Source: Perna viridis
Taxonomy: Eukaryota
Direction of reading: 5' to 3'
Assembly (NCBI GenBank): GCA_037379345.1
Contig: CM074511.1
Location: 2,976,001-3,040,000, forward strand
Length of the DNA stretch: 64,000 bases
The position numbers were made by a program, and so were the translations under genes. Positions 1 through 11,046 of the stretch are shown in pieces (within the stretch, counting starts at the first letter, position 1; every line of letters starts with the position of its first letter). Below the pieces are notes generated by a model. The model was not told the DNA's origin. It was given only the letters and a program-made list of their open reading frames with translations, and ran no database searches.

Positions 1-741
1 TTCTCCCCTCGCAGATCGATGGGGCGAGCGTCTTGATCGGTCAGATACGTCTGCATGCGATCGATGGTCCTCAGGGTCACGGGTAAGTAGACAAGATTCT
101 TGGGAGTCTGGATGATCTTCATGCCAGGATCGACTGCGGGAAAGAAGCTATAGATGGTGGACTGCTGCGTGCCGTTGACGTAGCTTCCGTGGATGATATC
201 GCTATTCACCAGGATGCTATTGATGCTGATGATATTGACGATCTTCTCACCCTCCGCGTAGCCGTTAGTGCTACGGTCGTAGGTATACGTCCGGCGCTCG
301 AATCCAAGCACCGTATTTAGGCTATTAGGCACGTCGAAATCCACTTCTGGGATAATTTCTGGCGAGAGTAAGGGTTGCTCTCAGCGTCGCGCGATTGGCA
401 TCGAGAAGGACCTCAGCCTTATGCTTATTGAGCCGCAGTTGCCGCTGGATCTCATCGTTGATATCGTCGATGCCGTAGGAGCCGGTGCTCAGCTCGACGG
501 GAAACCAGCTAGCCCCGTCATCGGGAGAGTAGCGGAAGGAATTATTACCTGCATGAATATTGGGGATGGAGTAGTAGGTCTCCAGATTCACGAGGGCCAT
601 CTCGTAAGATTTCTCCTCGCGCAGCTGGAGGGGTGGGTTGAAGCGAGTCAAGATCTGACTATCGTTCCCAGAGACGATGAAGAAGAACCCGTCCTTGGGC
701 TCGGTATTGGTGGCGATTTTCCGCAAAAGTGAAACGTCCAT
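1..741 (-). pseudogene. Minor capsid protein (penton), frameshifted, running off the window start
   Basis: ORF 325..741 (YEMALVNLETYYSIPNI...GSYGIDDINDEI) continues after a 4-bp insertion near 350 as EVDFDVPNSLNTVLGF...GSYVNG...IYSFFPAVDPGMKIIQTPKNLVYLPV...DQDARPIDLRGE, a typical Polinton penton C-terminus. Confidence 0.85.
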
Positions 742-755
742 TTATCTAAGCCTCA

Positions 756-2041
756 TCAGAAGACGACGCTCGTCTTCTGGCCGTCGGATTCGAATTGGAG
801 GATTCGATCGGAGATGACCAGGGAGAAGGCTTGGATATTGGCAGGGACATTGCGCTCGAAGTCGGCTCGGATCTGGATATCCACCGTCGACTCTTTCAGC
901 CGCTCGGACTGATGGCTCACGTCGATGACGAATAGGGGATATAGATCGATGAAGTCGGAGGGATTGATGCCGCCATTGCTCAGCAGACTTTCCATGCTAT
1001 AGAATTTCTTGCTGAATTCGGCAGCCTCCTTATAGACCCTGGCGACCCTGCATTGGGTGAAGCCAGCATTGAAGTCCACGGCGGGATAGCGCTCCGCATT
1101 GAGGGTCACGTGAATATTTCGCAATCGGCAGTGGTCGAAGACGGCGGCATTATGCAGCTGGTCGTTGTCCCTTTCGGTTTGAAAGGCGACGATGATCCAT
1201 CGCGGTTTTTCTCGCCCGCTTTTCGCGGCTAGGCGCCAATGAAATTGCGAGGTCTGGGGCACGGCTATGGAGTCGCACTGCCTCATGCGAAATCCGCAAT
1301 CGATTTTGGTCTTGCTCTGGATGGTCTTATAGAGCCGCAGACTCTTTTCGTCGGACGGGATGACGTGGGGGACGAACCACGGACCTTGCTCAAGACTACT
1401 TTGGCCACGTCGTTGACGGCAGCGGCTCGGAGGATGGCATTGGCATCCGAATCGCGCACCAGGGAGAGCTCGTGCTTGAATCCGTAGACGATCTTATCGT
1501 AGTCCTCGGCAAAGCCAAAGACGTGCTTGAGAGGGATGGAGAAGGAAAAGGACCCCTTATTGGCTGGCTTTGTGATGATATACTCGCGACGTGCTGCGAA
1601 TCCAACGTTATCTGCCTCAGCATCGGCCGTGGAGTCTTTGAACCATAGCTGGTTGAGGCCTTGCGATTTGGAGAAGTCGTCGGGATACGTCAGCATCCCT
1701 AGCATGGTGGTGGCGATGCCGGGGTCGTTGAGATGCTCGATCTGCTGGCCGGAGAGTCGGTAGCTGATGCTACGAAAGAGATACATGGCACCGTTATGGA
1801 CGAGCGATACCAGATCGCCATCGCCATACGCAGCGCTATCATTCTTCTGAAGTCGGCCTTCGATCAAGAGATAGCTTTCGGCGGGATGGAGGAAGAGATC
1901 CTGAGTCTCGATATTGATGCGTATCTCTGCGCCGGCATTATTCAGCTGCGCCCCGGCTTGAGGTTCGTATTCGTGAACCTGATATTCCTGGAAACTTTCA
2001 TCGAAAGTCAGTCCTTCGGTGATAGAGAGCATATCGGCCAT
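756..2041 (-). pseudogene. Double-jelly-roll major capsid protein (hexon), one frameshift
   Basis: ORFs 1283..2041 and 756..1286 join through a 1-bp deletion near 1381 (VVLSKV-x-WFVPHVIPSD...GFRMRQC), giving ~428 aa with the motifs IPLKHVFGFAEDY, EKPRWIIVAFQT and PLFVIDVSHQSE. Confidence 0.9.
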
Positions 2042-2048
2042 GATATAT

Positions 2049-9700: not shown

Positions 9701-10969
9701 GAAGCACTCCTGATCCTCGTTCTGCACGTTGATGATCCCCTTCTTTTTGGCGAGTGCTGATGGGGTCGGTATGAAGGAAGCCCCCTTGAGAGGCTTGAAT
9801 TGGTTGAGGTGGATCTCAAGCTTCTCAACGTGTCCGAAAGTCCATCCGCTCCCTTCCCGCATGTATTTAGCCATATTTTCCTTGATCTTCTCCATCATGA
9901 ACGCAATCTCCAGATCGAGATCTGCGGATTCGAAGAGGGTAATAAGGCCCGATCTGAAGTAGGGGGTGATGTTGGTATTTTCTCCGGTCGCGGGGTTGGT
10001 CTTTACCAGCTCTGCTAGAAGCACTAAGTGGACCTTCAATCCCTTCTTTTCGGTGAGAGCATCAGAGATGGTGGTGGAGATTGTGCTTCGACTTACCTTG
10101 AGAAACGTAGCTACGTCATGCGATTTCAAGGGTTCGATGACGACTGTGCCAAATACACCATTCAGTGCCTGACGCCTATCGGTGATCTTGATCTCCTCTT
10201 CGACTGGGGCGCTTCTGATGCTCTCTTCCACCTGCTGGAGTAGATCCTCTCTCTTGAGCCGGGAGTACCTGGTGAGCCCGCGATTCTTGGCGAGTGCTTT
10301 CAGCTGCTTCTTGCTGAAGACTTCCCTACGGGTAAATTTACGGGCGGTTTTCTCCTCGATGAGCTTCACCAAGGCCTCCTTGTTCTTCCTACTGAATCCC
10401 CTCAGACCCTCATCCTTAGCTATTTGACGGAGGGTCTTCATGGTCTCTTTGACCACCATCTTCCCCTCAACTGGGATGACCTCATCCTCCTGCTGGCGTG
10501 GTTGCTTGCTATGCATCCAGCAGCGACCACCCATCCCGGGCTTGCTCTTGCAGAACTGCCCCTTCTTCCTTTTCAGTGGATAATCGCAGGTGGTCTTCTG
10601 CTCCCCATCTGATTGATGCTCAAATCGCGGCTTGGCGGACTGCGCACCGCAATTTTGACACATATGGGTATGCTCATCCATCTGCGCCATGCTAGGGTTA
10701 TCGCAGCACTGCTGCTGCTTTTGGGGGATTGGGGTTGGAATGGTATCCTCCAAATCTTCTTGATTCTTCAGAAATAAATCCTGTAAGCGATCCATATTTT
10801 CACTATTGGATGCCGTCCCTTTATTTATTTCAATCTGTGACGCACTTCTCTTAAAGGTGTCCTTATTCACATCCCCACTATCCTCTGGGGCGACCTGACT
10901 TATGCTCTGTGCGAAAGACATAATTCTTGTATTTACCCTATGCTCAATAGGGATGCCGTCCGTTTGCAT
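6789..10969 (-). pseudogene. polB: Protein-primed family B DNA polymerase (pPolB2 type with endonuclease VII insert); in-frame stop and frameshift
   Basis: Motifs YADFEC, CHICG...VRDHDHLTGKYRGAAHNQCNL (EndoVII), HNLSGYDAH, RKGVYPYDY, YLDANNLYG (just after TAA 8027-8029), KLMNNSVFGK, FTDTDS and KAKGV. After a 1-bp deletion near 6963 the tail reads KIALSAKDELRHILPDGISTLAHGHY. Likely start is ATG 10795. Confidence 0.95.
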
Positions 10970-11030
10970 TTGACCGTCGGGGTTGGGGATTTTATGCAGG
11001 ATTTCTGCATGTGGGGCAGAATTGTCATTT

Positions 11031-11046
11031 TCACACTACTAGCGTG
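11031..11046. other. Right terminus of Polinton (ACTACT-3') and candidate 6-bp target-site duplication AGCGTG
   Basis: TCACACTACT|AGCGTG coincides with the GC-to-AT transition. The partner end is not in the window. Confidence 0.7.

What the first reader, a model, noticed from the sequence alone, without database searches (positions are those of the whole stretch)
1..11046. GC-rich endogenous beta-adintovirus/Polinton with a precise terminus in an AT-rich genome
Seen: capsid, packaging, integration and replication genes whose base composition and CpG abundance differ sharply from the host DNA, ending at ACTACT|AGCGTG. Known: Polintons end in AG...CT (often AGTAGT) with 6-bp TSDs, and EndoVII-type pPolB plus PLA2 marks group 2. 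Inference: this is a comparatively recent germline integration of a virus adapted to a different host or compositional niche. The adenain protease gene and left TIR should lie just upstream of the window.
Basis: partly seen in the sequence, partly recalled or inferred. Interest (0 to 1): 0.75.

Follow-up and report, generated by a model that had tools for sequence, protein, structure and literature searches.

The report
Dead copy of mussel-type Polinton virus
This is a broken, protease-less 12.8-kb copy of a GC-rich Polinton (integrating DNA virus) family present in dozens of copies in this animal genome, with its closest named relatives in Mytilus mussels, so its odd base composition is likely a long-standing trait of the virus lineage and not a sign of a recent jump from another host.

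Summary
The element is 12,830 bp and starts 1,790 bp left of the window. It has 133-bp TIRs (AGTAGT...ACTACT), the 6-bp duplication AGCGTG on both sides, and 53% GC against 35%. Two predictions fail. The protease is not upstream: sister copies carry it between pPolB and integrase, and this copy has lost it in a ~550-bp deletion. Nor is this a lone newcomer: the genome gave 40 scored right ends and 106 capsid matches, the 30 checked all 51-56% GC. They fall into three sublineages, each next to Mytilus sequences. This copy is young (0.63% private changes) but dead: frameshifts, a stop and no protease. Private changes are neutral and run towards ~22% GC. Shared changes are under selection, show recombination and stay near 45-63% GC3. 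The other Polinton class in the same genome is 32-42% GC. Verdict: new member of a known kind (Polinton, likely beta-adintovirus), with GC-richness as a clade trait.

The parts
1..1 (+). OUTSIDE the window, to the left (placeholder coordinate): left target-site duplication AGCGTG at L021:8205-8210 and left TIR at L021:8211-8343 (133 bp, begins AGTAGT, 1,790 bp before window base 1); 95.5% identical to the right TIR, all 6 differences shared with sister copies
1..1 (.). OUTSIDE the window, to the left (placeholder coordinate): three ORFs of unknown function, none a protease. L021:8216-8686 (+), 156 codons stop to stop, starts inside the TIR; L021:8858-9379 (-), 173 aa with a hydrophobic middle, look-alikes are unnamed mollusc and NCLDV clusters (score 0.93-0.94, a lead only); L021:9384-9962 (-), 192 aa, basic and Gly-rich, conserved in the distant sublineage, likely a virion accessory protein (inferred from position)
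1..741 (-). Likely minor capsid (penton) gene, named from position and recall, no Pfam hit; frame broken near 350; runs off the window edge
756..2041 (-). Double jelly-roll major capsid gene, frame broken near 1380
2049..2387 (-). 112-aa basic ORF just upstream of the capsid gene; candidate cupiennin-like core protein (weak hit Antimicrobial_7, E=0.015)
2399..3330 (-). Unknown gene in pieces (208 and 77 codons), conserved in the distant sublineage (51-61%); frame broken near 3250
3462..4091 (-). 209-aa Cys-rich ORF in the most variable part of the element; no Pfam hit, Atlas best score 0.77
4100..4863 (-). Packaging ATPase (Walker A and B visible), frame broken near 4370
4883..6299 (+). DUF5679 + PLA2-like + rve integrase + chromodomain in one gene, frame broken near 6110
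6349..6713 (-). Remnant of a 158-aa coiled-coil ORF whose start is lost in the deletion
6711..6723 (.). Junction of the ~550-bp internal deletion that removed the 137-aa adenain-like protease found here in sister copies
6789..10969 (-). [quoted passage not shown]
10908..11040 (+). Right TIR, 133 bp, ends ACTACT
11041..11046 (+). Right target-site duplication AGCGTG

Best explanation
This is a dead integrated copy of a GC-rich Polinton family, likely a beta-type adintovirus, that has likely entered this host's germline in repeated waves from a recombining pool of replicating genomes likely long associated with mussel-like hosts. Shown: TIRs, a 6-bp TSD, the core genes, private frameshifts, a stop and a protease deletion in this copy; subfamilies of different ages; neutral, AT-biased change in single copies against selected change between subfamilies; decay of linkage with distance; three sublineages each next to Mytilus sequences. 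Inferred from Polinton biology: the pPolB copies the linear genome from protein primers at the TIRs, the rve integrase makes the 6-bp staggered cut, and capsid, ATPase and protease build particles. Inferred here: high GC is kept during the element's own replication (polymerase bias, GC-biased conversion or codon selection; not told apart) and erodes only slowly after integration, so it says little about a recent host change.
For: TSDs: perfect 6 bp in 12 of 15 sisters tallied, one mismatch in 2, none in 1, plus one more perfect pair read from the flanks. Age classes over 19 sisters: ~1.9% pairwise (window + 5), 3-6%, ~6.5%, 11-12% between groups. Private changes by codon position 106/93/109 and 252/217/261 (p=0.49, 0.11); fixed young-old differences 99/60/272 (p=3e-39). 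Equilibrium GC of private changes 0.20-0.25; of internal branches 0.45-0.63. All 30 capsid loci checked are 51-56% GC, four of them only 72-74% identical to the window; 7 pPolB loci of the other class are 32-42%. Four-gamete conflicts rise from 97 of 842 site pairs (<100 bp) to 4227 of 9856 (>5 kb); 0 of 500 permutations reach the trend. Nearest named pPolBs are Mytilus, 72-85% aa; one clade of this genome's copies is rejected, p-AU 1e-66, and 1.6e-5 without the distant one. GARP/FYMINK 0.58-0.70 in 7 clade proteins against 0.29-0.54 in 112 others. An empty-site form with one AGCGTG stands in contigs of run X3.
Against: Internal-branch equilibrium GC3 (0.45-0.63; polarised shared sites 50 S>W against 24 W>S) is below the present ~0.68, so the lineage may be drifting down from a more GC-rich ancestor. 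The host was not placed: two host-protein searches gave no named relative, so 'mussel-like host' rests on the virus relatives and on recall. GC of the Mytilus elements was inferred from amino acids, not read from DNA. The one-clade test was set up after seeing the first tree. No free virus was found (IMG/VR: 0 relatives). Gene conversion between integrated copies could also give the linkage decay. Some frameshifts could be assembly errors; this was not checked against reads of the assembled animal.
Confidence: 0.82

Rival explanations
1. Ancient host or niche shift: the clade gained its high GC in an unsampled GC-rich host before the three sublineages split, and is slowly losing it in AT-rich hosts. 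This is the first reader's idea moved far back in time, and it is compatible with most of the best explanation.
For: The amino-acid shift sits on the stem of the clade; internal-branch GC3 equilibrium is below the present value; the other Polinton class in the genome is close to host GC.
Against: GC stays at 51-56% across sublineages that are 27% apart in capsid DNA, so any loss is very slow. No GC-rich donor is among the 120 best pPolB hits.
Confidence: 0.3
2. Purely intragenomic transposon: a few master copies excised, self-replicated and reinserted, with no particles; mosaicism comes from gene conversion between integrated copies.
For: No exogenous contig found; the young group is close to star-shaped; large repeats can convert each other.
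Against: Shared differences counted over polymerase, integrase, capsid, ATPase and two accessory genes together are biased to third positions (54/36/179; not split by gene). The window's breaks are not shared with sisters. Capsid-module genes are conserved across distant sublineages. The sublineages interleave with other species.
Confidence: 0.25
3. Recent single jump from a GC-rich host.
For: Sharp GC step; young copy; precise ends.
Against: Older, equally GC-rich copies; three sublineages with Mytilus neighbours.
Confidence: 0.05
4. Mis-join or contaminant.
For: No listed contig of 4 public runs bridges the 11040 junction (a gap in cover is no evidence).
Against: Matching TSD at both ends on a 72.6-Mb contig; left and right flanks adjoin in the empty form; dozens of copies across at least a dozen chromosome-size contigs.
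Confidence: 0.01

Closest known systems
Beta adintoviruses (Starrett et al. 2021, PMC8502044; bivalve example Pinctada in Suppl. Fig. S2 panel B)
   Same: Divergent PolB far from the pfam03175 archetype, rve integrase, FtsK-like ATPase, adenain, hexon, likely penton, and a small basic ORF beside the hexon; degraded germline copies.
   Different: The PLA2-like domain sits at the N-terminus of the integrase ORF, whereas the paper gives PLA2X as a separate Alpha-module gene. No OTU domain detected by Pfam. The paper's Mytilus example is in the Alpha panel, so it is not this element.
Vertebrate Mavericks (Barreat and Katzourakis 2021, PMC8097293)
   Same: (AGT)2//(ACT)2 ends, 6-bp TSDs, most copies mutationally degraded.
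   Different: Invertebrate host; 0 of 21 copies examined have an uninterrupted pPolB; strong GC contrast with the host.
Unannotated Mytilus 'DNA-directed DNA polymerase' proteins (VDI81882.1, XP_063419676.1, VDI48620.1, CAG2228123.1)
   Same: 72-85% aa identity over the region searched; one starts with the same TIR-encoded N-terminus; three sublineages shared.
   Different: Annotated as host proteins; their elements' DNA, ends and GC were not read here.
Nematode/oomycete/mollusc pPolB2 Polintons with HNH or VSR inserts (Jeong et al., 10.1101/2023.08.22.554363)
   Same: A nuclease-like domain inside pPolB.
   Different: That paper places pPolB1 and pPolB2 in Group 2 and gives VSR, not HNH, for mollusc pPolB2; no sequence comparison was made here.

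Membership tests
Polinton/Maverick (Orthopolintovirales) | [quoted passage not shown] | tested here: met
   PF03175 E=3.8e-9 above cut-off; 5317 homologues among 7999 candidates scored; interrupted in this copy
Polinton/Maverick (Orthopolintovirales) | Retrovirus-like (rve) integrase | tested here: met
   PF00665 E=1.3e-10, chromodomain E=3.8e-8
Polinton/Maverick (Orthopolintovirales) | TIRs with (AGT)2//(ACT)2 ends | tested here: met
   133-bp TIR; motif as in PMC8097293 passage
Polinton/Maverick (Orthopolintovirales) | 6-bp target-site duplication | tested here: met
   AGCGTG both sides; 12 of 15 sisters perfect at 6 bp, none perfect at 4, 5, 7 or 8 bp
Polinton/Maverick (Orthopolintovirales) | Double jelly-roll major capsid protein | tested here: met
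   PF21738 E=2e-34 and 3e-14
Polinton/Maverick (Orthopolintovirales) | Packaging ATPase | tested here: met
   Walker A/B motifs in the sequence; only weak P-loop Pfam hits; FtsK-type subfamily not tested
Polinton/Maverick (Orthopolintovirales) | Adenain-like protease (family level) | tested here: met
   Present in 13 of 21 copies, uninterrupted in 9; phmmer to adenovirus protease 1avp E=0.014, PF00770 E=0.21, His/Asp/Cys kept
Intact (potentially active) Maverick | All core ORFs uninterrupted, protease included, in this copy | tested here: not met
   Protease deleted; breaks in pPolB, integrase, ATPase, capsid, penton
Polinton/Maverick (Orthopolintovirales) | Single jelly-roll minor capsid (penton) | tested here: inconclusive
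   ORF next to the capsid gene, conserved at ~60% in the distant sublineage; no Pfam hit; not folded
Beta adintovirus | PolB <30% identical to the pfam03175 archetype and clustering with the Terrapene reference | tested here: inconclusive
   22% over 138 aa to an in-genome pPolB of the other class fits; the reference sequences (Suppl. File S2) were not in the part of the supplement held
Beta adintovirus | N-terminal OTU-like domain in PolB | tested here: inconclusive
   No OTU Pfam hit; the paper found it by structure-based profiles, not run here
Beta adintovirus | Cupiennin and GasderminX accessory genes | tested here: inconclusive
   112-aa ORF with a weak antimicrobial-peptide hit, E=0.015; 192-aa and 173-aa ORFs have no gasdermin hit
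Alpha adintovirus / Polinton group 2 | Archetypal pfam03175 PolB and a separate PLA2X gene | tested here: not met
   No tblastn match between this clade's pPolB and 7 pPolB loci of the other class in the genome; the PLA2 domain is fused to the integrase

The most novel reading that the evidence does not exclude
An undescribed, GC-rich beta-polintovirus clade still circulates among mussels as a free, co-infecting, recombining virus, in at least three lineages shared between host species. Its own replication keeps third codon positions near 60-70% GC while the host germline pulls towards ~22%, which would make it a natural test of virus-intrinsic against host mutation bias, and a place to look for animal Polinton particles.
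Probability: 0.3. Interest if true: 0.6.

Novelty: new member of a known kind. Interest (0 to 1): 0.32.

Why it matters
The copy itself is an ordinary fossil. The family is useful for two reasons. It shows that a GC and CpG contrast is a poor sign of a recent host jump for integrating DNA viruses, because the contrast persists in old copies and across sublineages. And the linkage decay, selected shared changes and cross-species sublineages are indirect evidence on an open question, whether animal Polintons spread as infectious particles; PMC8097293's abstract says particles have not been observed. Bivalve genomes are already known to be rich in such elements (10.1101/2025.04.19.649669, passages).

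Tried and rejected
Protease upstream of the window: none among the open frames of L021. PF00770 over the genome gave 0 of 4 candidates and rang in no control either, so it is uninformative. TIR left/right difference as a clock: rejected, all 6 differences are inherited. Read support: the first lay was swamped by a host repeat. In the second, no listed contig of runs X1, X2, X3 or X9 bridges 11040/11041; a gap in cover is no evidence, and the flank is multi-copy in those runs, so the empty form in X3 cannot be assigned to the orthologous site. No RNA holder listed; expression was not tested. IMG/VR search with a capsid protein: 2 pattern matches, 0 relatives. JGI metagenomes with the protease: 1 relative among 104 stretches. 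Host placement by the TGF-beta gene: 0 of 194 and 1 of 34 candidates, unnamed. PDB search with a Mytilus pPolB: 0 hits. Atlas for the Cys-rich ORF: best 0.77, no lead. Microhomology at 34 deletion junctions: 3 bp or more in 5 of 34 against ~6% expected, weak and alignment-dependent, not pursued. Capsid and integrase 'uninterrupted' counts are not used, because 10-kb locus borders cut genes and the integrase query was partial. Bacterial promoter/terminator scan of the pPolB 3' end: nothing, and not suited to this host. Earlier findings of the scan: none. Literature searches listed no paper that by title or abstract start describes this mussel clade or its GC contrast; subscription papers and RepBase were not searchable.
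Full report
Observation. Window 1-11040 has GC 0.532 and CpG o/e 1.02; the rest has 0.351 and 0.72, with a sharp step at the element end. The end reads ACTACT|AGCGTG at 11040|11041. The window is G000:C1:2976001-3040000 in a 723-Mb assembly. The left end lies 1,790 bp upstream: a 133-bp TIR 95.5% identical to the right one, directly preceded by AGCGTG. The element is 12,830 bp. Pfam confirms a DJR capsid, an ORF with DUF5679, PLA2-like and rve domains followed by a chromodomain, and a pPolB with Rho_N and a weak EndoVII match. 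The host is an animal (TGF-beta gene) and was not placed further.

State of this copy. It is dead. Frames break near 350 (likely penton), 1380 (capsid), 3250, 3490, 4370 (ATPase), 6110 (integrase) and 6960 (pPolB), and pPolB has an in-frame stop near 8030; the frame breaks are not shared with the sister copies compared. The region left of the window holds three ORFs of unknown function and no protease. Sisters carry about 550 bp more at window ~6713, encoding a 137-aa protein with the adenain His/Asp/Cys motifs (phmmer to adenovirus protease E=0.014). It is present in 13 of 21 copies and absent here.

The family. A search with the right end gave 40 matches scored out of 144 candidates, 75-99% identical. 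I fetched 20 of the 39 sisters, the best-scoring ones. Those with both ends found span 6.6-13.8 kb with many internal deletions; one more spans 22 kb because of a large insertion. TSDs are perfect at 6 bp in 12 of 15 tallied, one base off in 2 and absent in 1, and one further pair is perfect. No copy of 21 has an uninterrupted pPolB. The capsid profile gave 106 matches of 116 candidates, some being pieces of one gene. The 30 best are all 51-56% GC, including four only 72-74% identical to the window, which share the gene order. Seven pPolB loci of a different Polinton class in the same genome are 32-42% GC with CpG o/e 0.88-1.14. High GC is therefore specific to this clade, and CpG o/e near 1 is not.

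Age and selection. One fragmentary sister was dropped, leaving 19. Pairwise distances fall into a young group (window + 5, ~1.9%), a middle group (3-6%) and older groups (~6.5-7.4% within, 10-13% between). The window has 80 private changes in 12,764 sites (0.63%); older copies have 1.9-3.0%, and one without close relatives 6.0%. At an assumed 2e-9 to 1e-8 changes per site per year (not measured) 0.63% is roughly 0.6-3 million years. Private changes are even over codon positions (106/93/109; 252/217/261), while fixed young-old differences are not (99/60/272). Copies decay neutrally once inserted, and the subfamilies diverged while functional. The six TIR differences in this copy are all shared with sisters, and subfamily-specific changes in the outer TIR occur at both ends. 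That fits homogenisation of the ends during replication (inference) and means the TIRs cannot date the insertion.

Why it is GC-rich. Private changes run strongly GC to AT, equilibrium 0.20-0.25, and CpG sites change only 1.2-1.5 times faster than other C/G sites. Old copies have lost under 1 point of GC. On internal branches the third-position equilibrium is 0.59, 0.55, 0.63 and 0.45, far above the host pull but below the present ~0.68; polarised shared sites give 50 S>W against 24 W>S. That counts partly against a steady state and leaves room for an ancient shift from a more GC-rich ancestor. The best 8 pPolB hits form one clade with 49-93% identity; named members are Mytilus galloprovincialis, M. 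trossulus, M. edulis and M. coruscus. Seven of them measured have GARP/FYMINK 0.58-0.70 against 0.29-0.54 for 112 others, and a metagenome relative at 85-87% nt identity is 52% GC. In a 40-row tree this genome's copies fall in three places, each beside Mytilus sequences (five copies with pieces under 180 aa were left out). A 14-row test rejects one clade of them, p-AU 1e-66, and 1.6e-5 without the distant copy (the group was tested after seeing the tree). No donor or direction is claimed.

Recombination. Among 11 young and middle copies, 412 informative sites show four-gamete conflicts rising from 11.5% under 100 bp to 42.9% beyond 5 kb (30% sample of pairs); 0 of 500 permutations match the trend, and the 269 coding sites are 54/36/179 by codon position. 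The simplest reading is recombination among replicating genomes before integration. Conversion between integrated copies is not excluded.

Reads. Contigs of run X3 hold the left flank joined to the right flank with one AGCGTG, so the duplication is real and a mis-join is unlikely. The flank is multi-copy in those runs, so this is not proof of an empty allele. Two other insertions of this genome have matching terminus-plus-flank contigs in runs X1 and X9 (compared by eye).

Mechanism. Shown: integration with a 6-bp duplication, multi-copy spread at different times, selection before and neutral decay after insertion. From established Polinton biology (recalled, and PMC8502044): protein-primed replication from the TIRs, rve-mediated insertion, particle assembly by capsid, ATPase and protease. 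Inferred: GC is maintained in the replicating phase; the cause (polymerase bias, biased conversion, codon selection) was not resolved.

Comparison. It meets the Polinton definition at family level and fails the 'intact' definition of PMC8097293. It works like a Beta adintovirus, but membership is untested against the reference sequences, which lay beyond the part of the supplement held. PMC8502044 bins Beta PolB with Polinton group 1, gives PLA2X as a separate Alpha-module gene, and shows its Mytilus example among the Alphas, so 'EndoVII + PLA2 = group 2' is not supported by what I read. The PLA2-integrase fusion was not described in the passages read; I did not test how common it is.

Papers seen: PMC8502044, parts 1-2 of 6 of the text, passages, and the text of Suppl. 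Fig. S2; 10.1101/2023.08.22.554363, 10.1101/2025.04.19.649669, PMC11131425, PMC8097293, PMC3671162 and PMC4642659, passages only; all others, search listings. The labels 'penton' and 'cupiennin-like' rest on position and recall.

Verdict. Real feature, new member of a known kind, interest 0.32. The most novel reading left open is a still-circulating, recombining, GC-rich polintovirus clade of mussels (probability 0.3).

Noticed in passing
window 4883-6299 (+): The PLA2-like domain is fused in frame to the N-terminus of the rve integrase, behind a DUF5679 domain, and not a separate PLA2X gene; the same ORF layout is seen in the distant sublineage.
   Followed up: partly
window 10908-11040 and L021:8211-8343: Both TIRs run into open frames, so pPolB and the left 156-codon ORF share the same possible N-terminal peptide; a Mytilus pPolB (P0003) starts the same way. 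Outer TIR positions are homogenised between ends, inner ones differ.
   Followed up: partly
window 6710-6770: A short GC-rich palindrome flanked by a direct repeat lies just downstream of pPolB, at the deletion junction.
   Followed up: no
window 9211-10210: The pPolB N-terminal third differs by 11-13% between the window and four middle-group copies that are 2-8% apart elsewhere, a likely swapped block.
   Followed up: partly
L122, L123, L124, L126, L129, L131, L132: A second, AT-richer (32-42% GC) class of pPolB elements lies in the same genome; ends and capsids not examined.
   Followed up: partly
L026-L027; L034-L035 with L103; L045: One sister has an internal ~2.8-kb tandem duplication, one an ~8.5-kb AT-richer insertion (22 kb between TIRs, TSD intact), one a ~210-bp inverted piece.
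   Followed up: no
window 21152-21808 (-): Host TGF-beta family gene with only one unnamed match in the protein collection.
   Followed up: partly
window 12300-62100; L021:3075-5258: A very abundant repeat with RT-like coding remnants (Penelope-like by recall) occurs many times in the window; a 727-codon open frame of it lies in L021 with no Pfam hit at E 0.001.
   Followed up: no
window 14182-17440; 45588-50388; 56630-57148; 36107-36451: Remnants of a tyrosine-recombinase (DIRS-like) element, a BEL/Pao-like LTR element (labels by recall), a LINE RT, and a TatD-like piece.
   Followed up: no
P0001, P0123 (ENA contigs of 4-5 kb): Full-length pPolB proteins nest inside this genome's sublineage although no copy examined here is uninterrupted; they may be live elements or assembler-collapsed repeats.
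   Followed up: no
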